6,664 nucleotides of DNA from IMG/VR virus record IMGVR_UViG_3300029333_000064. One strand, given 5' to 3'. Under the pieces are notes generated by a model. It was not told where the DNA came from, searched no databases, and saw only the letters and a program-made list of their open reading frames with translations. The stretch comes from a virus. Position 1 is the first letter of the stretch, and every line of letters starts with the position of its first letter. Of this stretch, positions 1 to 6,664 are shown piece after piece. The translations under genes were made by a program, and so were the position numbers.

Positions 1-123
1 ACCTGTTTGCAAATCATCAGGTATATTGAATTGAGACTTACGTTCAGAAGTACTACCATCGGCGAGAACATCCATCCAAGGAGGAGTAACGGTTTCGTCA
101 CCACCAAAGAAAGACATCCAGTC
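1..123. repeat. Terminal redundancy, copy 1 (assembly overlap of a circular genome)
   Basis: 1..123 (acctgtttgcaaatcatcagg...aagacatccagtc) is repeated base for base at 6542..6664, implying a 6541-nt circular unit. Confidence 0.95.
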
Positions 124-381
124 TTCCCAAAGAGTACGAGTACGAACATAAACAAAATGTAAACGCACATAAAGTTGAGTCTGTATAGGGAATACAGTCG
201 GAAGCAACTGCAAATTGAAACGGGCGTTTATCTGAAACGAATCACCAAACGAGACAGGAAGCAAACACACAGGAGTAATTGCTCCAAATTTCATCGTCAA
301 ATTGTTCACAAACGAAAGATCGAAAGTAGAACGATTGACACGATCGATATAAGTATCTTTTTTACGAAATATATTTGCCAT
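1..381 (-). CDS. VP1: Major capsid protein VP1 (F-protein family), N-terminal codons 1-127. Continues across the circular junction into 6541..4739.
   Basis: Hand translation from the ATG at 381..379 gives MANIFRKKDTYIDRVNRSTFDLSFVNNLTMKFGAITPVCLLPVSFGDSFQINARFNLQLLPTVFPIQTQLYVRLHFVYVRTRTLWEDW, followed by MSFFGGDE... This is 88 codons in frame with the track ORF, whose M at 6658 equals position 117. The R-S-x-F-D-L-S ... G-x-(I/L)-x-P ... (L/F)-P-G-D-(S/T)-F pattern is the hallmark N-terminus of Microviridae capsid proteins. The fragment is absent from the ORF track because it runs off the window edge. Confidence 0.93.
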   Translation of the reverse strand, partial: MANIFRKKDTYIDRVNRSTFDLSFVNNLTMKFGAITPVCLLPVSFGDSFQINARFNLQLLPTVFPIQTQLYVRLHFVYVRTRTLWEDWMSFFGGDETVTPPWMDVLADGSTSERKSQFNIPDDLQTG

Positions 382-383
382 AA

Positions 384-584
384 TTATAAATTAACATTAA
401 TATCAGGAGTTTTTAAACTATCTACACGCATAGTAGTAGACTGTTGCGTGCCTTGAGAAGAATTCTGGTTCTTCCAGAATAAGGACATAGATGCGGTGCA
501 ACTATCCAAAAGAATAGCCGCGGCTACTCCTAGAATAAAAGTAGTCGCGAGCTCTATAATTTTATAAATCTGTTGTTTAGTCAT
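384..584 (-). CDS. Small membrane or lipoprotein-like protein, 66 aa from the ATG at 584 (the track start at 596 is a TTG)
   Basis: Sequence is MTKQQIYKIIELATTFILGVAAAILLDSCTASMS... It has a basic N-region, a hydrophobic stretch of about 15 residues, then L-D-S-C (Cys29), followed by a polar S/T/Q/N-rich tail. Its ATG overlaps the stop of the upstream ORF (ATGACTAA), and its TAA lies 2 nt before the VP1 ATG (TAATTATG). Confidence 0.55.
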   Translation of the reverse strand: MTKQQIYKIIELATTFILGVAAAILLDSCTASMSLFWKNQNSSQGTQQSTTMRVDSLKTPDINVNL

Positions 585-801
585 CTTCCGGCTCAATTAG
601 ATATTGTTCATACATACCATCAGGAAGCTGACGGTCAGTAACAATCAACTGCATAGCAGCAGAAAGAGGAATGTGTTCACGGACTACAACAACAGTCGGC
701 ATTTCTTCCTGAGTAGACAGAAATTTACGAGTTGTAAAAGTAACACGAGGTTCGTTGTCTTGCGCTGTAACTGAACAGCAATCTACATTTAATTTTACCA
801 T
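577..801 (-). CDS. Hypothetical protein, 74 aa, acidic C-terminus
   Basis: ATG start at 801 and TAA stop at 577..579. Same strand as, and tightly packed with, its neighbours: 13 nt after the upstream ORF stop and an 8-nt overlap with the next ORF. I recognise no motif. Confidence 0.5.
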   Translation of the reverse strand: MVKLNVDCCSVTAQDNEPRVTFTTRKFLSTQEEMPTVVVVREHIPLSAAMQLIVTDRQLPDGMYEQYLIEPEDD

Positions 802-814
802 AATGTAAAAAATT

Positions 815-994
815 TTAAGTGAAACAAAAATTATTAGATAGGACTATCAGGTAATCATCCTGCATGAGTCCAGGTAATTCAAAATTTACAAATAAAATAT
901 ACTCGTCAAGAGTTTCAAAGGTACGATAAGAAATTTTATCCTTTTCATAATTCAACATCACCTTTGGATATATCTTAGCATAAATGTATGGCAT
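815..994 (-). CDS. Hypothetical protein, 59 aa (not in the supplied ORF track)
   Basis: Hand translation from the ATG at 994..992 gives MPYIYAKIYPKVMLNYEKDKISYRTFETLDEYILFVNFELPGLMQDDYLIVLSNNFCFT, ending at the TAA at 815..817. The start lies 2 nt after the VP4 stop (TAACTATG), the same stop-2nt-ATG layout seen at two other junctions. Confidence 0.4.
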   Translation of the reverse strand: MPYIYAKIYPKVMLNYEKDKISYRTFETLDEYILFVNFELPGLMQDDYLIVLSNNFCFT

Positions 995-996
995 AG

Positions 997-2394
997 TTAC
1001 AAAGTTTCTTTATAAATAGCAAGAATATTCTCGTTATCTGTTTTATATTTAACATACGTTATATCAATCTCAGGCTGCGTTGACATATATTCACTCATGA
1101 ACTCATGATGTTCACGCTTAGCAGAAGTCATCATTTTGTAATATTCGAGATCAAATTCATACGCTTCAAGCATAGCCAAAAGAGGTTCAAGAATATGCTC
1201 CATAACAATAAGGCTATCCTCCTGATGAATAGCGTAAAAATTCTTCGCGTTGTCGAAAATAAAGCGAGGAAAACGTTCCACACAAGTGTCAAAATTGTAA
1301 AAGGGATACTTTTCCTGAAGACGTTTACGAGTTACATTTACTTCCTTATCAGGCATACGAAGATGAATTTGCCAGAGACAAGCGCGAAGTGACAAAAAAT
1401 AATCGGCAAGTTGAATAGTATCACGTATTTCTTTTCGAATAAGCATAGACGGAGTAGGATAAAGTTTCCGACGAAAATATGCAGGGACATACGAAGTAAA
1501 GCGTTCACCTGTAAATTTATCAACAATTTCAACAGTCAGAACGTCAGGGTTTTGATAAAACCACAAAACATGATCGAGACACCACTTATAGCCAAGACCG
1601 CCGCCACGGCGGGAGGATAAATAAAAGGTTGGTTTACAACCTTTAGGAACATCACTTTCTTTACGCATATATTTCATGCAATATTGAATACCACCTTGAG
1701 TACAAGGTTTACAATAGACAAAACCAAGTTCACCTATATAATCCCAATCAAAGCGATGAGTAAGTTTATTATAAACTCGTTTTCGTTCAGACCAAGCTTG
1801 ATGAACAACCTGATAAACATCCATAGCAGACATATGAATAGGCATATTCCACAAAATAAGATGATAATGAGGCAGTTTCGTATGGCTACCATACTCAGCG
1901 GCGGCAAAATACCGTATTTTCTCATCATAGTTATGGTCTCTAATAAGAATTTGACGCAAACGCTTAAGAAAATCTTGTACATGTTTTTTATCTACACCAT
2001 CCGCGGGACGATGTATGGGGTTATAAGTGAGGGTAATAAAATAAGGGACGGAACGGGAAGATTGCGTTTCTGCGACAGCTCGAAACATCCACTCACGGGC
2101 GTTTCTCTTTCGACAAAGACCACATTTACGACATGGAGTGGCAAGGAACATTGGTACGACGTCATCCTCGCGGTCAACGGCATAAAAACTGTCTTGCCAT
2201 GAAGTAAGGTTTTGAAAATCAATGTTTTTCGGCGAAAACAGGGCATACGGAAAGTTCCAACGCCATGCAGCGAGTTGCATTTCCGGTACAAAAGTTGCAT
2301 TTCCATCATAAACATATTTTCCAGTTTGTAAAAGTGCATCCTTAAAAGCAGGATTTAAAATATATTTTGGTTTTTCACAAAGAATATTTGTCAT
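997..2394 (-). CDS. VP4: Replication initiation protein VP4 (HUH rolling-circle endonuclease, phage gene-A family), 465 aa
   Basis: Three motifs were verified codon by codon. Motif I is FITLTY (2040..2023). The HUH motif is HYHLIL (1869..1852). The catalytic Tyr motif is YCMKYMRK (1683..1660). An upstream PCRKCGLCRKR cysteine cluster is typical of microvirus VP4. ATG at 2394, TAA at 997..999. Confidence 0.95.
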   Translation of the reverse strand: MTNILCEKPKYILNPAFKDALLQTGKYVYDGNATFVPEMQLAAWRWNFPYALFSPKNIDFQNLTSWQDSFYAVDREDDVVPMFLATPCRKCGLCRKRNAREWMFRAVAETQSSRSVPYFITLTYNPIHRPADGVDKKHVQDFLKRLRQILIRDHNYDEKIRYFAAAEYGSHTKLPHYHLILWNMPIHMSAMDVYQVVHQAWSERKRVYNKLTHRFDWDYIGELGFVYCKPCTQGGIQYCMKYMRKESDVPKGCKPTFYLSSRRGGGLGYKWCLDHVLWFYQNPDVLTVEIVDKFTGERFTSYVPAYFRRKLYPTPSMLIRKEIRDTIQLADYFLSLRACLWQIHLRMPDKEVNVTRKRLQEKYPFYNFDTCVERFPRFIFDNAKNFYAIHQEDSLIVMEHILEPLLAMLEAYEFDLEYYKMMTSAKREHHEFMSEYMSTQPEIDITYVKYKTDNENILAIYKETL

Positions 2395-2416
2395 AGTTTT
2401 TAATTTTTAATTTTAA

Positions 2417-2457
2417 TTTGAGCGTTACCCCTAAAGGGGTCGGGCTATCCGCTCAAA
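2417..2457. other. Compound hairpin
   Basis: The outer stem TTTGAGCG (2417..2424) pairs with CGCTCAAA (2450..2457), 8 bp. The inner stem ACCCC (2427..2431) pairs with GGGGT (2436..2440) around a TAAA loop. It lies 23 nt upstream of the VP4 ATG on the gene strand. Confidence 0.8.
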
Positions 2458-2460
2458 CAA

Positions 2461-2475
2461 ATTCGTTTCACGAAT
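2461..2475. other. Hairpin
   Basis: ATTCGT (2461..2466) pairs with ACGAAT (2470..2475), 6 bp, loop TTC. Confidence 0.7.
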
Positions 2476-2500
2476 ACTCGCTCCTATCCCTAACGCGTTT

Positions 2501-2513
2501 CGCTACGCTACGC
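2501..2513. repeat. Tandem CGCTACGCTACGC, the core of a recurrent CGCTA(C) / CTACGC motif
   Basis: CTACGC occurs at 2503, 2508, 2667 and 2718. CGCTAC occurs at 2501, 2557 and 2665. CGCTA also occurs at 2506 and 2706. All copies are on the same strand within about 220 nt. Confidence 0.7.
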
Positions 2514-2528
2514 AATATATACGAAGGC

Positions 2529-2543
2529 GTCATCCAAGATGAC
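2529..2543. other. Hairpin
   Basis: GTCATC (2529..2534) pairs with GATGAC (2538..2543), 6 bp, loop CAA. Confidence 0.7.
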
Positions 2544-2544
2544 A

Positions 2545-2569
2545 GAGCGGTGTTCGCGCTACCGCGCTC
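2545..2569. other. Bulged GC-rich hairpin
   Basis: GCGGT (2547..2551) pairs with ACCGC (2561..2565). GA (2545..2546) pairs with TC (2568..2569) across a 2-nt bulge. The loop is GTTCGCGCT. Confidence 0.6.
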
Positions 2570-2605
2570 ACGATTTCATAATTTTCTTTTATCTCTCAAG
2601 ATGTG

Positions 2606-2613
2606 CAAAGATA
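2606..2613 (-). promoter_or_regulatory. Possible Bacteroides-type -7 box (TATCTTTG) with no good -33 partner
   Basis: The plus-strand caaagata is the same octamer as the -7 box at 3262..3269. No TTTG lies 19-21 nt upstream. If active, it would give VP4 a structured leader of about 200 nt. Confidence 0.25.
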
Positions 2614-2649
2614 AAGTGTAGTTAAAAATATCGTTTATCAACCTGTACC

Positions 2650-2689
2650 AAACTATGCTAAAGTCGCTACGCTTTGTTTAACATAGTTT
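2650..2689. other. Long imperfect hairpin
   Basis: AAACTATG (2650..2657) pairs with CATAGTTT (2682..2689), 8 bp. Inside, AAAG (2660..2663) pairs with CTTT (2672..2675). The apical part carries a CGCTACG motif copy. Confidence 0.75.
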
Positions 2690-2708
2690 ACTACAGAACG
2701 CCAAACGC

Positions 2709-2763
2709 TATTTTTCCCTACGCATTGTTTTATTGCACGTCTCGAAAGAAAAAAGGAAAAATA
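2709..2763. other. Long-range A/T-rich stem enclosing 37 nt
   Basis: TATTTTTCC (2709..2717) pairs with GGAAAAATA (2755..2763), 9 bp perfect. Confidence 0.55.
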
Positions 2764-2814
2764 TGCTTTGATGTTTGCGATAGAATAAGAGACAGAATGG
2801 ATAAGAACGCAAAC

Positions 2815-2831
2815 CGAAATTGGGAATTTCG
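2815..2831. other. Hairpin
   Basis: CGAAATT (2815..2821) pairs with AATTTCG (2825..2831), 7 bp, loop GGG. Confidence 0.7.
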
Positions 2832-2856
2832 TAAGGCTGTAGCCTGATTGGGCGAG

Positions 2857-2873
2857 GGAGCGCAAGGCGCTCC
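2857..2873. other. GC-rich hairpin
   Basis: GGAGCGC (2857..2863) pairs with GCGCTCC (2867..2873), 7 bp, loop AAG. No T or A tract follows on either strand. Confidence 0.75.
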
Positions 2874-2893
2874 ACATTCAGAGCTTTCACACA

Positions 2894-2913
2894 AGCTGAC
2901 CAATGTGTCAGTT
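2894..2913. other. Hairpin or inverted repeat with CTGAC/GTCAG core
   Basis: AGCTGAC (2894..2900) pairs with GTCAGTT (2907..2913), 7 bp including one G-T pair, spacer CAATGT. Confidence 0.65.
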
Positions 2914-2947
2914 GTGCTATATATATCAAGTTAGACGATGCCGGATG

Positions 2948-3214
2948 CTACTCGCCCGGTCCACAAGTTAACTGACAAAAGTCAGTATAAGAGAATACCG
3001 CACGAGACGTGCGATTGCAATACTCTGCATCAATGATACCTACAAACAAATATGTAGATTGATATGTCTGCTGCATATAATCTACAAAAGACACAGCTCT
3101 ATCAGCTATATCCAACTCCAAAGCTTGATAAGTAGTACTACAAGGTATACCCAAAACTTTAATATACTCTTGTTTATTCTTTCTAATGTTTAAATACTGT
3201 AAAAGAATGTCCAT
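2948..3214 (-). CDS. Hypothetical 88-aa protein with an N-terminal helix-turn-helix-like motif (possible DNA-binding regulator)
   Basis: ATG at 3214, TAG stop at 2948..2950. Residues KQEYIKVLGIPCSTTYQALEL fit the common HTH pattern (hydrophobic-x-x-L-G-I-x-x-x-T-x-Y). A good Bacteroides-type promoter precedes it. Against a full-length coding call, the C-terminal third overlaps GC-rich hairpins, and the ORF is the only gene not tightly abutted to its neighbours. Confidence 0.45.
   Translation of the reverse strand: MDILLQYLNIRKNKQEYIKVLGIPCSTTYQALELDIADRAVSFVDYMQQTYQSTYLFVGIIDAEYCNRTSRAVFSYTDFCQLTCGPGE
2971..2986. other. Perfect 6-4-6 palindrome with the same CTGAC/GTCAG core
   Basis: ACTGAC (2971..2976), AAAA spacer, GTCAGT (2981..2986). 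It lies inside the 3' end of the 88-aa ORF. Confidence 0.7.
2999..3013. other. GC-rich hairpin
   Basis: CGCACG (2999..3004) pairs with CGTGCG (3008..3013), 6 bp, loop AGA. It lies inside the 88-aa ORF. Confidence 0.7.
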
Positions 3215-3261
3215 AATTGGAATGTTTTAAAGGTTAATAATTTTGTTTCTTTTCAACACTA

Positions 3262-3293
3262 CAAAGATAGACATTCTCTATAACTTTTCCAAA
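3262..3293 (-). promoter_or_regulatory. Bacteroidetes-type promoter: -33 TTTG (3293..3290), 20-nt spacer, -7 TATCTTTG (3269..3262)
   Basis: The minus strand reads cATTTGgaaaagttatagagaatgtcTATCTTTGtagtg. This matches the published Bacteroides consensus TTTG-N19-21-TAnnTTTG. It sits in the 92-nt gap between the VP2 stop and the 88-aa ORF, about 48 nt upstream of that ATG. Six TAnnTTTG matches exist on this strand, but this is the only one with a correctly spaced -33. Confidence 0.6.
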
Positions 3294-3306
3294 TGTTCTG
3301 TGTTAA

Positions 3307-4425
3307 CTAATCATAATATTCATATTCAACGTATTTACGCGTTCCATCCTCAGACCGAGTTTCCGTACGAGTCTTTGTTTTACCAAAATTAGCTGCACGA
3401 GGATTTGCAAAAGGTACAAACGACGCAACATCACCTAAAATTAAATGAATCTGTTGCATAGCACGCTCAAAATCATCCCAATTCTTATCCTGAAGCAAAT
3501 CAAAACGAAGACGGGCTTCTTCCGCGTTTACTTTAAAACCCAAATCCTGATAGAACGAAGCCAACGCTTCATTCCGATTCTTTTCAGAAGTCATAAGAGG
3601 TAGTTTAACCGCAAGTTCACGAAGAGCAGCCTTAAGCTGTTCTTGAGAAACTTCAAGTTGTCCTTCCATAACCTTAAGCTTACCATGTTCAATAAATGAA
3701 TCCAAAGCAAAACGAACATGACGTTCCCAAATTTTGTCATCAACATCAGCAGCCTGGGAAATCAAAAGGTCAATTTCAGAAGATATCTTCTTAATAGAAG
3801 CATTGATTTGCTCAACCATACTACGAGCCTGTGAAGCCTGTGCATCATTAAGCTTAATCTGACTACTATTAACAAGAATAACACTCTCCATGGTATCAAG
3901 CTGTCCTTGATTAAAAGCATCACGAAACGAAGCATCAGAAGCAAGAATATCATTTGTATGCTTTTGACCTTCTGTTTCAGCAGTAGTCTTAGATACTTGA
4001 GCAGCCAAAGCAGTATCCGCAAGAGCCTGTGAAGCAACGCTTCCAATAGGCCTGTAACGATTCCATGCGGAAGTATCAGCAACAGGGCCAGTAGGAGTAT
4101 GACCGCCTTGTGCCTGAATAGATGAACCTTGTAATGCTCCATTAGTAGCATATAAATCAGGATTAATATTGGCAGCTCTTAAACGAGCCTGTACAGCAGC
4201 AGGAGTATTATACTCATTATTAGCCTGCCAAAGTTTATAATTCCAATCATTTTGAGCTTCACGCTCAGAGGTCTGCCATTTACGGGTCTTCTCAGCTTCT
4301 TCTCGCGCCGCCGCGAGCTGTTTCATAACAGATTGATTTTGAGAATGAGCACCAAATAAATTAGAGATGCCGGAAAGTGCACCACCAATTAGCGCACTTC
4401 CAGCACCTGCAAAAAATGGTGACAT
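3307..4425 (-). CDS. VP2: VP2-type minor capsid or DNA pilot protein, 372 aa
   Basis: The position after VP1, the Gly/Ala-rich hydrophobic N-terminus (MSPFFAGAGSALIGGALSGISNLFGA) and the long Ala/Gln/Glu-rich helical or coiled-coil-like body are typical of microvirus VP2/H-type proteins. The start overlaps the upstream stop (TAATG). The stop is TAG. Confidence 0.8.
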   Translation of the reverse strand: MSPFFAGAGSALIGGALSGISNLFGAHSQNQSVMKQLAAAREEAEKTRKWQTSEREAQNDWNYKLWQANNEYNTPAAVQARLRAANINPDLYATNGALQGSSIQAQGGHTPTGPVADTSAWNRYRPIGSVASQALADTALAAQVSKTTAETEGQKHTNDILASDASFRDAFNQGQLDTMESVILVNSSQIKLNDAQASQARSMVEQINASIKKISSEIDLLISQAADVDDKIWERHVRFALDSFIEHGKLKVMEGQLEVSQEQLKAALRELAVKLPLMTSEKNRNEALASFYQDLGFKVNAEEARLRFDLLQDKNWDDFERAMQQIHLILGDVASFVPFANPRAANFGKTKTRTETRSEDGTRKYVEYEYYD

Positions 4426-4736
4426 TATTGTAATTGCTTACGCTTTTCATTGTAGGCGGCTACAATTTTAGCGCGGGCATCACGTTGAGCATTCCAAATA
4501 TCAGCAATATCCTGGCCTCGACGATATTCAACGGGAACAATCCAAGATTCCTCATCCATAAAGTCATCAGAGGGTAACTGCGAAATATTTTGAGAAGAAA
4601 TAGGTACACCAGCTTTAGCAGCTTCATACATTTGTGCAGGAGTGTAGGCAAGGTCACCACGTACAGGAAGTTCTCCAGGCTTCCGAGTACATGTACATGT
4701 GTGGGTATTCCAAGCATGAATTACAACTTGTTTCAT
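4425..4736 (-). CDS. Hypothetical 103-aa protein between VP1 and VP2, possibly a VP3-like internal scaffolding protein
   Basis: It is coupled at both ends: TAATTATG after VP1 and a TAATG overlap with VP2. The composition is charged and protein-like. The scaffolding guess rests only on size, position next to the capsid genes and loose resemblance to gokushovirus VP3. It is not verified. Confidence 0.6.
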   Translation of the reverse strand: MKQVVIHAWNTHTCTCTRKPGELPVRGDLAYTPAQMYEAAKAGVPISSQNISQLPSDDFMDEESWIVPVEYRRGQDIADIWNAQRDARAKIVAAYNEKRKQLQ

Positions 4737-4738
4737 AA

Positions 4739-6664
4739 TTATTCAATATGAGGTATAGAGTTACGAGGAATAGTAGTTTTCTTAGTAATATCAAAAGCAA
4801 TACTGCCCAAAATCTTATCACCATTTTCGGCAGTCATAGCAAATACGTCATTAACATGATCAGGATTAACGAGTAAAAAATCCTTAGAAAGTTCAGGGGC
4901 TTTATCAAATACACGATTAATAAGGAAATTTCTCATAGAACCGCGGAATTCTCCGTGAACTTCATCAAAAGACGAAATTAAATCCCAATATGCACGCTGA
5001 TAACCAAATACATTATTAACATTTTCAGCATTCACAGCATAAGACTGATACGGGCACAAATGTTTATAAAGCATAGGTTGATAACTGATGTTATTGAATT
5101 GCGGAAAATGCCAATCCAAAAGATTCATACGGGTGAAATGAGGCGCTAGCAACTGCGAATAATTAGCAGCAGGTACGACAGACATAACACCAAGGATATA
5201 ACCATCTTCCGGACAATATTTACGAATAACATGACGCATACCAGATTGCAAGGAACCTTGACCAGCAAAACTACCAAGAGGGTTACCTTCGGTAGGTGTA
5301 GTTTGAGTTACCTTATATACAGGTATAGTATCAGAAATGCCGCCAAGGAATTCGGGCATCATGAGCTCGTCATAATCCAAATTAACATCAAAAAGACCCT
5401 TTACAAGATTCTTATAACGCGGAGATTGACGAATACGAATTTCAAGGAAACGCTGAAGTGAATTAACATTACGGAAATCTGAAATAGATATACCAGAAGT
5501 AGCCATACCTATAAGATTCCGAACGACATCAGCAGGAGCATTAGAGCTCTTAACTTGAAAACCTGTAACAGTATCTCCATCATCAGCAGTTTCAAGTTGT
5601 GCATGATATTCAGTTCCAGCAGCATCACGGAATGTAGCTTCACCAAGAGAGGTAATACCTACAAGGGGCGCAATGCCAGCTTGAGGGGATTGCAAGGCCG
5701 TAGTATAAGCGTCAGGTTCCCAATTAGCATAATGCAACTGATATTTATAACTATCAGGACCGCCTTTTACAGATGGTACATATCTATTATATTCGGGTTT
5801 ACCATCAACAATGAACGGATTATTACGAATGTCACGACCAAATGCATTATAATAAGCTTCATACGTACGAAAAGGAAGAGCAGACAAGGGGATAGTAGGC
5901 ATGCCAGTAGAAGCATAGAAAGGACAATTATCTGAAGTAATAGTAACTTGTTGGCCAGAAGACAATAGCTTGTAGTAAGTAGGATTACCCAAATATTGAA
6001 TTAAATATTCACCTTGCCAAAAAACATCAGAAGCATTCCGAGGAGGAGTCACAACATAAATTGTCACATCAGTAGTATAAGAGCGCAAATCCAAAGAATA
6101 AGAAACCTCTTCACTTTTCGGAAGAACATCAAGAGTGAGTACATCTAAAATCTTATTAGTCGTAGAAGAAGTAACAACAAAAAAACCATAACGCCAAAAG
6201 TCTTTTGCATGATAAACATCAAGAAAACGCAAAGTTAAAAATGCCGTTTCAGGATTATCAACGCCAGAATCTAAAAGAGGTAACTTATAAGATATGGCTA
6301 AATATGCATTCTCAGCAGAAGAAGAGGTAGGTCGAGACTCACCAAGATTTGAAATAGACTCACCTTTAAGGGAAGTCAAAGCAGAAACAGCGGCATCACG
6401 AGAAAGACCGTCTATATTATCAAATAAAAAAGAACCGCCCCAAGCATCAGAATGTTCTACACCATAATCAACAGAAACGCTTTTTTCAGCGCCATAATTA
6501 CCAACTAAAGTCGTAGGCACACCAAGATAATCAGCAAGAGAACCTGTTTGCAAATCATCAGGTATATTGAATTGAGACTTACGTTCAGAAGTACTACCAT
6601 CGGCGAGAACATCCATCCAAGGAGGAGTAACGGTTTCGTCACCACCAAAGAAAGACATCCAGTC
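4739..6664 (-). CDS. VP1: Major capsid protein VP1, codons 87-727 plus TAA stop. The 5' end is cut by the window edge.
   Basis: Largest ORF in the window. It stays open to the window end, and 6664 equals position 123, which is in frame with the ATG at 381. Full gene length is 381 + 1803 = 2184 nt, or 727 aa plus stop. The M at 6658 used by the ORF track is internal. Confidence 0.95.
   Translation of the reverse strand, partial: DWMSFFGGDETVTPPWMDVLADGSTSERKSQFNIPDDLQTGSLADYLGVPTTLVGNYGAEKSVSVDYGVEHSDAWGGSFLFDNIDGLSRDAAVSALTSLKGESISNLGESRPTSSSAENAYLAISYKLPLLDSGVDNPETAFLTLRFLDVYHAKDFWRYGFFVVTSSTTNKILDVLTLDVLPKSEEVSYSLDLRSYTTDVTIYVVTPPRNASDVFWQGEYLIQYLGNPTYYKLLSSGQQVTITSDNCPFYASTGMPTIPLSALPFRTYEAYYNAFGRDIRNNPFIVDGKPEYNRYVPSVKGGPDSYKYQLHYANWEPDAYTTALQSPQAGIAPLVGITSLGEATFRDAAGTEYHAQLETADDGDTVTGFQVKSSNAPADVVRNLIGMATSGISISDFRNVNSLQRFLEIRIRQSPRYKNLVKGLFDVNLDYDELMMPEFLGGISDTIPVYKVTQTTPTEGNPLGSFAGQGSLQSGMRHVIRKYCPEDGYILGVMSVVPAANYSQLLAPHFTRMNLLDWHFPQFNNISYQPMLYKHLCPYQSYAVNAENVNNVFGYQRAYWDLISSFDEVHGEFRGSMRNFLINRVFDKAPELSKDFLLVNPDHVNDVFAMTAENGDKILGSIAFDITKKTTIPRNSIPHIE
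6542..6664. repeat. Terminal redundancy, copy 2
   Basis: Identical to 1..123 and ends exactly at the window end. Confidence 0.95.

What the first reader, a model, noticed from the sequence alone, without database searches (positions are those of the whole stretch)
2395..3013. Hairpin-dense, G+C-enriched non-coding module of about 0.55-0.6 kb in an otherwise gap-free microvirus
Elsewhere on the circle, genes abut with gaps of 13 nt or less, or overlap. This stretch has no credible ORF, yet it carries at least eleven perfect or near-perfect stem-loops with 5-9 bp stems, many with 3-4 nt loops. They lie at 2417-2457, 2461-2475, 2529-2543, 2545-2569, 2650-2689, 2709-2763, 2815-2831, 2857-2873, 2894-2913, 2971-2986 and 2999-3013. 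Local G+C reaches 33/60, against 18/60 in the one coding line counted. A perfect 6-bp stem with a short loop should occur roughly once by chance in 600 nt, so this density is far above expectation. A genome under strong size constraint that keeps about 9 percent of its length as structured non-coding DNA suggests a function. Three possibilities stand out. It could be a structured non-coding RNA or a long VP4 leader. It could be the ssDNA complementary-strand origin, since folded hairpins serve as primase, PriA or RNA polymerase entry sites in G4, phiX174 and M13. It could also be a novel element carried as cargo. I cannot match it to any RNA family I know by eye.
Basis: partly seen in the sequence, partly recalled or inferred. 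Interest (0 to 1): 0.78.

Follow-up and report, generated by a model that had tools for sequence, protein, structure and literature searches.

The report
Microvirus replication-origin region with exchangeable hairpins
The hairpin-rich gap in this gut microvirus is real and conserved, and is most likely the phage's DNA replication control region: a phiX174-like nicking site followed by folded single-strand elements that probably start second-strand synthesis, one block of which is swapped between unrelated microviruses.

Summary
Window 2395-2947 is 553 nt, 8.5% of a 6541-nt circle, has no gene and folds far better than shuffles. Nearly every hairpin is kept by compensatory changes in relatives.

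All genes lie on the window minus strand, and that strand is the one that folds: 314 G.T wobbles against 4 A.C.

The region is modular:
- **2889-2959:** two hairpins flank CTAACTTG|ATAT, which matches the phiX174 viral-strand nick site at 10/10 core positions.
- **2773-2873:** three small covarying hairpins.
- **2395-2764:** a 370-nt cassette, 79.5% identical in a second microvirus lineage whose proteins are about 25% identical. It holds a 178-nt, 64-bp rod hairpin, three small hairpins and an 80-nt element resembling the orphan Rfam motif Flavo-1.

Loops are enriched for GCGNAGC/GCGNNAGC DNA mini-hairpins, as at the G4 complementary-strand origin.

Best reading, confidence about 0.5: a combined viral-strand and single-strand origin acting on packaged ssDNA. 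An RNA leader role is not excluded.

Side result: in another clade the nick motif and the Flavo-1-like element both lie antisense to all genes.

The parts
2395..2947 (-). Whole non-coding control region between the p88 stop codon and the VP4 (Rep) start codon; 553 nt
   Evidence: ORF map and Pfam/PHROG hits. Folding z-scores. About 98% conserved in the closest relatives.
2941..2959 (-). hp-b: a 5-bp hairpin immediately 5' of the nick motif
   Evidence: Alignment A6, columns 79-98, with a C-G to U-A compensatory change in 11 of 23 genomes. Coordinates.
2915..2934 (-). phiX174-like viral-strand origin core, CTAACTTG|ATATATATAGCA. The predicted Rep nick lies between 2927 and 2926.
   Evidence: phiX174 reads CAACTTG|ATATTAATAACAC, with rep_origin annotated at 4306. 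The match is 10/10 around the nick and 20/30 over the phiX 30-mer. CTAACTTGATA is present in 22 of the 23 genomes of A6 (L070 reads TTAACTTGATA), including the two about 72%-identical relatives.
2889..2917 (-). hp-c: a 10-bp hairpin immediately 3' of the nick motif and its AT-rich spacer
   Evidence: Invariant in A6. In the L008/L015 clade a hairpin of different sequence occupies the same place.
2857..2873 (-). hp-d: a G+C-rich 7-bp hairpin
   Evidence: Five of its 7 pairs show compensatory changes.
2815..2831 (-). hp-e: a 7-bp hairpin, CGAAATT-CCC-AATTTCG
   Evidence: Compensatory changes at 3 pairs.
2773..2814 (-). hp-f: a 7-bp stem closing a 28-nt loop
   Evidence: Compensatory changes in Dulem virus 258 and SH-CHD12.
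2582..2759 (-). Rod: a 178-nt imperfect hairpin of 64 bp. It is the 5' part of the exchangeable cassette 2395-2764.
   Evidence: RNAalifold on 41 genomes. In the structure as a whole, 99.5% of cells are paired and 22 pairs are compensatory, reached by 0 of 500 shuffles; 15 of those pairs are in the rod. Slid controls pair 39-48%. G.T 314 against A.C 4. DNA fold -36.5 kcal/mol, z = -5.4.
2694..2707 (-). 5' half of an invariant distorted helix inside the rod, CGTTTGGCGTTCTG. With its partner it forms three G.T pairs and two mismatches.
   Evidence: Invariant in 41 genomes of two lineages. Coordinates.
2632..2645 (-). 3' half of the same invariant distorted helix, CAGGTTGATAAACG
2666..2672 (-). 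Rod apex mini-hairpin GCGTAGC (GNA triloop closed by C-G)
   Evidence: Motif class described in PMC13037366.
2606..2613 (-). TATCTTTG, matching the Bacteroidetes -7 box TAnnTTTG. It lies in the 3' arm of the rod, about 25 bp from its base, half in an internal loop.
   Evidence: Invariant in all 41 genomes of alignment A5 and part of the block found in 78 metagenome contigs. No -33 TTTG at the usual spacing. The promoter consensus is from my own knowledge.
2552..2571 (-). hp3: a hairpin with a GCGGTAGC (GCGNNAGC-type) loop
   Evidence: Three of 6 pairs are compensatory. Loop variants GGTA, GGGA and GGCA.
2528..2544 (-). hp4: a 7-bp hairpin, TGTCATC-TTG-GATGACG
   Evidence: Two of 7 pairs are compensatory, with an invariant U.G pair.
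2497..2513 (-). hp5: a small hairpin with a C-GNA-G triloop. The window reads GCGTAGCGTAGCG, with two overlapping GCGTAGC.
   Evidence: The loop varies GTA, GAA and GGA across about 83 cassettes with a G..A frame and a standard closing pair (C-G in 80 of 83). Motif count.
2417..2496 (-). F: an 80-nt Flavo-1-like three-helix element. It has an outer helix GCGTTA/TAACGC, a GGG/CCC-UA-GC helix with purine-rich internal loops, and two variable hairpins.
   Evidence: Sub-threshold Rfam hits to RF01705: 18.2 bits here and 22.2 bits in a Bacteroidales MAG, against a gathering score of 42. Structure count on 20 diverse copies: 93% paired, 11 compensatory pairs, reached by 0 of 500 shuffles. Optional within the cassette.
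2395..2416 (-). A-rich, unstructured leader directly 5' of the VP4 start codon
   Evidence: Direct reading of the sequence; conserved in both cassette lineages.
2948..3214 (-). p88: an 88-aa accessory ORF.
   Evidence: Relatives keep a 35%-identical allele at the same place. No Pfam or PHROG family. Hairpin data.
3262..3293 (-). Full-consensus Bacteroidetes-type promoter, TTTG-N20-TATCTTTG, upstream of p88
   Evidence: It is the only full match on the gene strand and is conserved in close relatives.
997..2394 (-). VP4, the rolling-circle replication initiator and presumed trans-acting partner of the nick site
   Evidence: Pfam REP_ORF2-G2P 7.8e-18. PHROG 942 1.1e-55.

Best explanation
The region is the phage's cis-acting replication control region, comparable in concept to the intergenic region of filamentous phages. 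It acts on the strand that Rep nicks, displaces and presumably packages. Here that is the gene-sense (window minus) strand.

1. **Viral-strand origin.** Rep (VP4) nicks CTAACTTG|ATAT between 2927 and 2926, between hairpins hp-b and hp-c. The motif match is shown; cleavage is inferred.
2. **Single-strand origin.** Once that strand is single-stranded, the downstream array folds: hp-d, hp-e, hp-f, the 178-nt rod, hp3 to hp5 and the Flavo-1-like element. The fold is shown by covariation and strand-specific wobble. Its SSB-resistant GNA/GNNA mini-hairpins and one invariant distorted helix would then serve as the entry site for a host priming enzyme, either primase or RNA polymerase. This is inferred by analogy with the G4, St-1 and alpha3 origins, the M13 origin, and plasmid single-strand origins. 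The invariant -7-like box near the base of the rod fits an RNA-polymerase-primed mechanism of the M13 or Frpo type, but that step is the most speculative.
3. **Exchangeable module.** The cassette 2395-2764 is host-adapted and is exchanged between unrelated microviruses.
For: - Every major helix is kept by compensatory changes: 22 compensatory pairs and 99.5% pairing in 41 genomes; 21 of 48 pairs in the nick-proximal part; 11 pairs in the Flavo-1-like element.
- Folding is strand-specific: 314 G.T against 4 A.C.
- The nick motif matches phiX174 at 10/10 core positions and is nearly invariant across relatives.
- Mini-hairpin motifs xCG(N/NN)AGx': 4 on the gene-sense strand against 0.7 expected, P = 0.006. 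Across 91 cassettes the mean is 3.8 sense against 1.0 antisense. The hp5 loop keeps G..A while N varies, and the commonest hp2 loop of the Flavo-1-like element is GCGAAGC.
- These motifs sit at the primase start of the G4, St-1 and alpha3 complementary-strand origins and in RSF1010 ssiA. Their RNA versions are much less stable (PMC13037366).
- The cassette is 79.5% identical in a lineage with about 25% protein identity, where it precedes VP2 rather than VP4. So its role is not Rep-specific. Single-strand origins are likewise orientation-specific and shared between unrelated replicons (PMC4595007).
- Wherever both were found, the nick motif and the Flavo-1-like element lie on the same strand, including genomes where that strand is antisense to all genes. 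That ties the element to the DNA strand, not to the mRNA.
- In MG945282 a rod-like hairpin carrying TTTATCTTTGCA lies about 100 nt 5' of the Flavo-1-like element on that antisense strand.
- The rod is found only inside microvirus genomes, and prophage junctions lie elsewhere.
Against: - There is no experimental evidence on which strand is packaged, or on priming.
- G.U pairs and the GNRA-like hp3 loop also fit RNA.
- In both cassette lineages the cassette sits directly 5' of a gene, in sense, with a -7 box and an A-rich leader. That is what a promoter-plus-leader module would look like.
- There is no sequence similarity to the G4 or phiX complementary-strand origins.
- The -7 box lacks a -33 TTTG at normal spacing.
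- Most of the covariation in the rod is one split between two lineages, so it represents few independent events.
- The Flavo-1-like element is optional: it is deleted in L044 and replaced in L054, L056 and L077.
- The co-orientation argument rests on about four independent lineages.
Confidence: 0.5

Rival explanations
1. An RNA-level element. The cassette would be a portable promoter plus structured 5' leader, or an intercistronic processing and stability element, for the downstream gene. The rod would act as an RNase III-type site, an insulator or a translational regulator in read-through transcripts.
For: - The cassette is always directly 5' of a gene, in sense orientation: VP4 in lineage 1 and VP2 in lineage 2.
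- It carries an invariant TAnnTTTG box and an A-rich leader typical of Bacteroidetes translation starts (the consensus is from my own knowledge).
- It has many conserved G.U pairs.
- The upstream p88 promoter would transcribe through the region.
- The fold z-score with RNA parameters is -14.5.
Against: - No Rfam family reaches threshold.
- GNA triloops closed by C-G are a DNA hallmark rather than an RNA one.
- In MG945282, MG945248, mar49, L008, L015 and L387 the Flavo-1-like element lies antisense to all genes, and MG945282 also has a rod-like hairpin there, so it is not in any mRNA leader.
- Flavo-1 hits in Flavobacterium psychrophilum do not track transcripts (PMC9723704).
- The downstream gene differs between the two lineages.
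Confidence: 0.3
2. Selfish or neutral cargo. The cassette, or at least the Flavo-1-like element, would be a non-autonomous mobile element of MITE/REP type that invades microvirus genomes and has no role for the phage.
For: - The Flavo-1-like element occurs at different positions and in both orientations relative to genes. It is found in 18.9-kb and 42-kb phage contigs, in a Bacteroidales MAG (twice) and in a Treponematales MAG.
- It is optional within the cassette.
- The cassette crosses lineages.
- The rod resembles a long inverted repeat.
Against: - The rod was found only inside microvirus genomes among 41 viral and 78 metagenome contigs.
- It shows compensatory evolution with a strong strand bias, which implies selection on a folded single strand.
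- It has been retained at about 98% identity while VP1 diverged to 67-73%.
- No further copies of the Flavo-1-like element were seen in the host DNA flanking the prophages.
- No target-site duplication was seen, though none was searched for systematically.
Confidence: 0.12
3. An integration site (attP, for example a dif-like Xer substrate folded from ssDNA, as in CTX phage).
For: Related Bacteroidales microviruses integrate at dif-like sites (PMC3091885). Lineage-2 genomes carrying the cassette occur inside contigs of up to 368 kb.
Against: In every integrated lineage-2 copy the cassette is internal, between p154 and VP2, with microvirus genes intact on both sides, and homology to a 6.1-kb lineage-2 genome ends elsewhere (true att junctions were not defined). 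A dif-like TTATGTTAAAT lies outside it in L356. No intact integrated copy of the window's own lineage was seen.
Confidence: 0.03
4. A degraded coding gene, or hairpins that arise by chance.
For: Mechanical ORFs of 57-74 aa overlap the region. A similar density of perfect hairpins occurs in VP4 coding sequence.
Against: Indels between the lineages are not multiples of three, for example a 14-nt insertion at the rod apex and 1-2 nt indels. Substitutions preserve pairing rather than codons. None of 1000 shuffles reaches the observed hairpin count.
Confidence: 0.02

Closest known systems
phiX174 viral-strand origin (gene A protein nick site CAACTTG|ATATTAATAAC)
   Same: The 10-nt core AACTTGATAT around the nick is identical, followed by an AT-rich spacer. 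The genome encodes a Rep initiator matching Pfam REP_ORF2-G2P and PHROG 942. The motif is on the gene-sense strand.
   Different: It lies in a non-coding region flanked by two hairpins, not inside the Rep gene. Only 20 of the 30 origin positions match. Cleavage is untested.
Complementary-strand origins of G4, St-1 and alpha3 (primase-dependent) and plasmid single-strand origins or ssi signals
   Same: A strand-specific array of hairpins in an intergenic region of an ssDNA replicon, with GCGNAGC/GCGNNAGC mini-hairpin loops. Like plasmid single-strand origins, it is a module shared between unrelated replicons.
   Different: There is no sequence similarity. It is much larger, with a 178-nt rod plus at least 8 hairpins. 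The host is probably Bacteroidales, whose priming signals are unknown. Function is untested.
Intergenic region of Ff phages (M13, f1) and ssDNA promoters such as Frpo
   Same: One non-coding region of about 0.5 kb combines the plus-strand origin with hairpins for minus-strand initiation. A promoter-like box sits in a hairpin stem with a partly unpaired segment.
   Different: A different virus family and a different promoter consensus (-7 TAnnTTTG), with no proper -33 element. No packaging-signal role is expected in Microviridae. The comparison rests on my own knowledge of those systems.
Flavo-1 RNA motif (Rfam RF01705; Weinberg et al. 2010)
   Same: The same conserved core, GGGAU(A/U)G(G/A)AGCG ... 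hairpin ... GAGCGGA(A/U)AGCCCGA, with the same pairing scheme. Taxonomic range is Bacteroidetes, with a Spirochaete outlier. Function is unknown, and placement is independent of orientation.
   Different: It scores 18-22 bits against a gathering score of 42. It has an extra outer helix and a second hairpin. It sits in ssDNA phage genomes on the strand that carries the Rep nick motif, which suggests a DNA element rather than an RNA.
Conserved hairpins upstream of Rep in reekeekee- and roodoodooviruses (PMC9865509)
   Same: Intergenic hairpins next to Rep in microviruses, with compensatory substitutions, proposed as the site of negative-strand initiation.
   Different: Those are single hairpins of 13-64 nt. 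Here there is a multi-hairpin region of about 550 nt with an identifiable nick motif, an exchangeable cassette and a Flavo-1-like element.

Membership tests
phiX174-type viral-strand origin | Nick-site core CAACTTG|ATAT followed by an AT-rich spacer | tested here: met
   Window minus strand 2934-2915 reads CTAACTTG|ATATATATAGCA. The match to NC_001422 4299-4328 is 10/10 in the core and 20/30 overall.
phiX174-type viral-strand origin | Conservation above background in relatives | tested here: met
   A core of about 100 nt is roughly 90% conserved in genomes that are 72% identical overall. CTAACTTGATA is present in 22 of 23 genomes; the other reads TTAACTTGATA.
phiX174-type viral-strand origin | Cleaved by the cognate Rep, on the strand that is packaged | not testable with these tools
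   Needs a nicking assay and strand-specific sequencing of virion DNA.
Single-strand (complementary-strand) origin | Strand-specific secondary structure on the displaced strand | tested here: met
   G.T 314 against A.C 4 on the strand that bears the nick motif. Pairing 99.5%, with 22 compensatory pairs.
Single-strand (complementary-strand) origin | GCGNAGC/GCGNNAGC mini-hairpin loops, as at the G4, St-1, alpha3 and ssiA priming sites | tested here: met
   Four in the region against 0.7 expected, P = 0.006. Across 91 cassettes the mean is 3.8 sense against 1.0 antisense. Motif class from PMC13037366.
Single-strand (complementary-strand) origin | Sequence homology to a characterised origin (G4 or phiX PAS) | tested here: not met
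   blastn in distant mode against 50,697 phage records found only 7 uncultured gut phage records (6 microviruses and one 18.9-kb contig), each sharing a short patch.
Single-strand (complementary-strand) origin | Supports primer synthesis and conversion of ssDNA to dsDNA in an orientation-dependent way | not testable with these tools
   Needs in vitro priming or plasmid ssDNA-accumulation assays.
Flavo-1 RNA (RF01705) | Score at or above the Rfam gathering threshold of 42 bits | tested here: not met
   18.2 bits in the window and 22.2 bits in L042. No hit at gathering threshold in 15 loci that carry the element.
Flavo-1 RNA (RF01705) | Conserved core nucleotides and pairing scheme | tested here: met
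   The cmscan alignments show GGGAU.G.AGCG and AGCGGA.AGCCCGA paired as in the model. Covariation at the A-U/U-A pair, with correlated insertions.
ssDNA promoter (M13 minus origin or Frpo type) | Host promoter boxes reconstituted in a hairpin stem | tested here: inconclusive
   An invariant -7-type TATCTTTG lies in the 3' arm of the rod, but there is no -33 TTTG at 19-21 nt. The same 12-mer occurs in the rod-like hairpin of MG945282 but not in other genomes.
MITE/REP-type repeated element | Many copies in host chromosomes, outside phage genomes | tested here: not met
   For the rod, every long contig examined among the 78 metagenome hits has microvirus genes on both sides, and the remaining hits are microvirus-sized contigs. 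For the Flavo-1-like element, only three credible copies were found in the 185,579 representative genomes of the collection.
Any Rfam family | Match at gathering score | tested here: not met
   None in the window. The only hits were sub-threshold miRNA-type hairpin matches.

The most novel reading that the evidence does not exclude
The Flavo-1-like element and the rod are single-strand initiation signals that always ride on the strand Rep nicks. On that reading, a clade of gut microviruses (L008, L015, L387, L388, MG945282, MG945248, mar49) packages negative-sense DNA, because its phiX-like nick motif lies antisense to every gene; so does its Flavo-1-like element wherever one was detected (none was found in L388). 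The orphan Bacteroidetes 'RNA' motif Flavo-1 would then be a DNA element recognised by the host priming machinery.
Probability: 0.3. Interest if true: 0.85.

Novelty: new variant of a known kind. Interest (0 to 1): 0.62.

Why it matters
**Replication origins of gut microviruses.** Microviruses that infect Bacteroidales are among the commonest phages of the human gut, yet to my knowledge their replication origins are uncharacterised. This region gives a concrete, testable map:
- a predicted Rep nick site, located to the nucleotide;
- a covariation-supported candidate second-strand origin;
- evidence that this origin module is exchanged between lineages.

**An orphan Rfam motif.** The region links Flavo-1, whose function has been unknown since 2010, to ssDNA replication strands.

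**Packaged-strand polarity.** Nick motifs offer a simple sequence criterion for predicting which strand a microvirus packages. By that criterion one clade would be negative-sense, which would contradict the textbook description of the family.

Tried and rejected
- **Rfam, whole window and region alone.** Only sub-threshold miRNA-like hairpin hits and the Flavo-1 hit were found. The mir-1781-like hairpin at 3199-3281 is not better than shuffles as DNA, z = -0.6.
- **tRNA and tmRNA.** None.
- **Coding potential.** Rejected because of non-triplet indels and pair-preserving substitutions.
- **attP.** Rejected for the cassette, because in integrated lineage-2 copies it is internal, with microvirus genes on both sides. 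My loose dif regex was uninformative.
- **Host MITE.** Rejected for the rod.
- **Unproductive collection scans.** Three patterns brought no new relevant loci. blastn of the L008 nick region against the phage collection found nothing.
- **ssoA CS-6.** A CS-6-like TAGCGA sits in the rod apex, recalled from memory. It is present only in lineage 1, so I did not use it.
- **First orientation guess.** From one G.T pair in an outer stem I first took the window plus strand to be the functional strand of the Flavo-1-like element. The later counts overturned this.
- **Hairpins inside VP4.** Those at 1548-1920 are only 72-91% paired in relatives, with few compensatory changes.
- **Conserved stretch in the VP4 C-terminus.** A conserved 25-nt stretch there resembles a dif arm, but it is confined to one Rep lineage and is probably conserved as coding sequence.
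Full report
**Setting**

The window is a circularly permuted microvirus genome. Positions 1-123 repeat 6542-6664, so the circle is 6541 nt. All genes are on the minus strand, in this order:

| Gene | Coordinates | Note |
|---|---|---|
| VP1 | 4739-6658, continuing to a start at 381 | 727 aa |
| p103 | 4425-4736 | |
| VP2 pilot protein | 3307-4425 | |
| p88 | 2948-3214 | |
| VP4 (Rep) | 997-2394 | |
| Two or three small ORFs | downstream of VP4 | |

The finding therefore covers the 553-nt gap between p88 and VP4 (2395-2947) plus the last 66 nt of p88. The strand that is both mRNA-sense and, in classical microviruses, packaged is the window minus strand.

Yes.
- All eleven hairpins fold as described.
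- The 619 nt fold at -208 kcal/mol against -154 +/- 3.7 for shuffles, z = -14.5 with only 20 shuffles.
- Of the 300-nt windows scanned (positions 1-4350, before the script timed out), the most extreme lies at 2551-2850.
- Six perfect short-loop hairpins are present against 0.97 expected, reached by 0 of 1000 shuffles.

There are caveats.
- G+C enrichment is modest.
- An equal density of perfect hairpins occurs inside VP4 coding sequence at 1548-1920, but those are poorly conserved.
- Positions 2948-3013 are coding.

**Relatives**

- The nearest database genomes are Dulem virus 258 and SH-CHD12, about 72% identical. Their VP2-VP4 gap is about 460 nt. They share only a block of about 100 nt, roughly 90% identical, corresponding to window 2870-2965.
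- Four IMG/VR genomes with 97%-identical VP4 keep 2395-2930 at about 98%. Their VP1 is only 67-73% identical, and p88 is replaced by a 35%-identical allele.
- Window 2397-2764 is 79.5% identical to a block in a second lineage (L010, L012, L016 and others). That lineage's VP1 and VP4 are about 25% identical to the window's. There the block lies between a 154-aa ORF and VP2.
- One 22-nt block of the cassette retrieved 41 viral and 78 metagenome contigs. They fall into just these two lineages. Every long contig examined has microvirus genes on both sides, and the other hits are microvirus-sized contigs.

**Structure**

*The cassette.* On 41 cassettes aligned in gene-sense orientation (A5), RNAalifold predicts 88 pairs, 22 of them with compensatory double changes.
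- Counting a fixed structure gives 99.5% of cells paired and 22 compensatory pairs, reached by 0 of 500 shuffles. Slid controls pair 39-48%.
- The dominant feature is a 178-nt rod of 64 bp at 2582-2759. It is followed by hp3 (2552-2571), hp4 (2528-2544) and hp5 (2497-2513).
- Eight pairs are mostly or always G.T. Overall there are 314 G.T cells against 4 A.C, so only the gene-sense strand is under selection to fold.
- Long runs in both arms are invariant. They include a distorted helix (2694-2707 with 2632-2645) with three G.T pairs and two mismatches, which looks like a recognition site.

*The nick-proximal part.* In alignment A6 (23 genomes) the hairpins also covary, with 21 of 48 pairs compensatory. 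These are hp-a (2971-2986), hp-b (2941-2959), hp-d (2857-2873), hp-e (2815-2831) and hp-f (2773-2814). hp-c (2889-2917) is invariant.

**The nick motif**

Between hp-b and hp-c the minus strand reads CTAACTTG|ATATATATAGCAC. phiX174 reads CAACTTG|ATATTAATAACAC, with the origin of viral-strand synthesis annotated at A4306. The ten bases around the nick are identical, and 20 of the 30 origin positions match. CTAACTTGATA is present in 22 of the 23 genomes of A6; L070 reads TTAACTTGATA. I take this as the viral-strand origin, with a predicted nick between window 2927 and 2926. The match is shown; cleavage is inferred.

**The Flavo-1-like element (F, 2417-2496)**

- A scan of the region alone gave a sub-threshold hit to Rfam Flavo-1 on the minus strand: 18.2 bits here and 22.2 bits for a copy in a Bacteroidales MAG, against a gathering score of 42. 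No copy reaches threshold.
- The conserved core and its pairing agree with the model. On 20 diverse copies my three-helix structure is 93% paired with 11 compensatory pairs.
- F is optional in the cassette: it is deleted in L044 and replaced in L054, L056 and L077.
- It occurs at other positions in other microviruses, in two larger phage contigs, twice in a Bacteroidales MAG and once in a Treponematales MAG.
- Flavo-1 has no known function. In Flavobacterium psychrophilum its copies lie in either orientation relative to transcripts, and many are not transcribed (PMC9723704).

**DNA or RNA?**

Three observations lean towards single-stranded DNA.

1. *Loop motifs.* The loops are of the GNA/GNNA type closed by C-G.
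   - The rod apex is GCGTAGC and hp3 is GCGGTAGC.
   - hp5 is C-G(T/A/G)A-G, with N varying while G and A are fixed.
   - The commonest hp2 loop of F is GCGAAGC.
   - Such motifs number 4 on the gene-sense strand of the region against 0.7 expected (P = 0.006). Across 91 cassettes the mean is 3.8 sense against 1.0 antisense.
   - These are the 'mini-hairpin DNA' motifs found at the primase start site of the G4, St-1 and alpha3 complementary-strand origins, in RSF1010 ssiA and in N4 promoters. They bind SSB poorly and are far less stable as RNA (PMC13037366).
2. *Not gene-specific.* The cassette precedes different genes in the two lineages.
3. *Co-orientation with the nick motif.* Wherever both were found, F lies on the same strand as the nick motif.
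   - Both are gene-sense in the window lineage and in L019.
   - Both are antisense to all genes in L008, L015, L387, MG945282, MG945248 and mar49. In L388 only the nick motif was detected, also antisense. There the motif sits between two hairpins just upstream of VP2.
   - In MG945282 a 140-nt hairpin carrying TTTATCTTTGCA lies about 100 nt 5' of F on that antisense strand.
   - Only the nicked strand is ever single-stranded during rolling-circle replication, so this pattern fits elements that act on displaced ssDNA.

**Mechanism proposed**

Rep nicks at 2927/2926. The displaced and packaged strand folds. The SSB-resistant hairpin array then recruits a host priming enzyme to start the complementary strand.

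The invariant TATCTTTG at 2606-2613 matches the Bacteroidetes -7 box and is identical to the -7 box of the full-consensus promoter at 3262-3293. It lies in the 3' arm of the rod, about 25 bp from its base and half in an internal loop. In a hairpin that geometry would let RNA polymerase copy the 5' arm outwards and make a primer, as at the M13 minus origin. This step is inference. The -33 box is missing, and the promoter consensus is from my own knowledge.

Single-strand origins are orientation-specific and are shared between unrelated replicons (PMC4595007). Hairpins next to Rep have already been proposed as negative-strand initiation sites in tiny microviruses (PMC9865509).

**Rivals**

- *RNA leader or expression module.* This remains plausible, at about 0.3, because the cassette always abuts a gene in sense, with a -7 box and an A-rich leader.
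- *Selfish cargo.* Unlikely for the rod, possible for F.
- *attP.* Excluded for the cassette. Lineage-2 proviruses in contigs of up to 368 kb keep it internal, and a dif-like site lies elsewhere in L356.
- *Degraded gene or chance.* Excluded by indel pattern and covariation.

**Verdict**

The finding is real, conserved and functional. It is a new variant of a known kind, the origin region of an ssDNA phage. It has two features worth following up: the link between Flavo-1-like elements and the Rep-nicked strand, and a clade whose nick motif lies antisense to its genes.

Noticed in passing
window 1-123 and 6542-6664: The two ends are an exact 123-nt terminal repeat, so the true circle is 6541 nt. 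VP1 crosses the window ends and starts at 381 on the minus strand, giving 727 aa rather than 639.
   Followed up: yes
L008 5768; L015 820; L387 51 and 5952; L388 2401; L185 (MG945282) 5158; L187 (MG945248) 3426; L186 (mar49) 2386: In this clade the phiX-like nick motif, flanked by two hairpins, lies on the strand antisense to every gene; so does the Flavo-1-like element wherever one was detected (none was found in L388). If the motif is functional, these microviruses would package negative-sense DNA.
   Followed up: partly
window 2948-3214 (minus strand); L009 1167-1436: The 88-aa ORF p88 has no family hit. In genomes that are otherwise about 97% identical it is replaced by a 35%-identical allele, which looks like an exchangeable accessory gene. 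Its sequence LGIPCSTTYQAL looks like a helix-turn-helix by eye only.
   Followed up: partly
window 3262-3293 (minus strand): This is the only full-consensus Bacteroidetes-type promoter on the gene strand (TTTG-N20-TATCTTTG). It lies in the 92-nt gap between VP2 and p88 and points to a Bacteroidales host.
   Followed up: partly
window 1548-1920 (inside VP4 coding): Seven perfect hairpins with stems of at least 6 bp cluster in 372 nt of the Rep gene. In 56 relatives they are only 72-91% paired, with few compensatory changes. Many of the breaks would be G.T pairs on the gene-sense strand.
   Followed up: partly
L326, L336, L377 (contigs of 209, 129 and 369 kb) and about 15 other loci: Lineage-2 microviruses carrying the cassette occur inside long gut-metagenome contigs, apparently as proviruses (gene order p63-p64-VP4-VP1-p154-cassette-VP2; true junctions not defined). 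A dif-like TATTATTATGTTAAAT lies about 300 nt beyond VP2 in L356. This fits the Xer/dif integration proposed for Bacteroidales microviruses.
   Followed up: partly
L032 7480-8000 and L042 7200-7720 (Bacteroidales MAG JAKSMI010000005): Two inverted copies, 92% identical, of a non-coding element of at least 480 nt that begins with a Flavo-1-like core. One lies downstream of dnaK. They contain internal repeats and have no microvirus genes nearby.
   Followed up: no
L314 about 5657; L327 about 3052: Window-lineage sequences are joined to bacterial-looking genes at a point inside VP4 (aa 307 and aa 113). These may be defective proviruses or chimeric assemblies.
   Followed up: no
L366 (12,495 nt): This contig is a head-to-tail dimer of a window-lineage genome. 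The cassettes are 6565 nt apart, consistent with a circular or concatemeric template.
   Followed up: no
window 1043-1067 (minus strand; VP4 aa 443-451): TTGATATAACGTATGTTAAATATAA is almost invariant across the window lineage and Dulem virus 258 despite 51% Rep identity. It resembles the dif XerD arm TTATGTTAAAT. It is confined to this Rep lineage, so it is probably conserved as coding sequence.
   Followed up: partly
L185 1153-1588; L188 (RodF7_7) 3734-4801; L186 4576-5028: Many gut and faecal microviruses have non-coding regions of 0.45-1.1 kb next to Rep that contain the Flavo-1-like element. A large structured gap is therefore common in this group and not peculiar to this genome.
   Followed up: partly
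window 2666-2680 and 2497-2513: TAGCGA and TAGCGT, which resemble the CS-6 of plasmid ssoA origins as I recall it, occur in the rod apex and in hp5 of the window lineage only.
   Followed up: no
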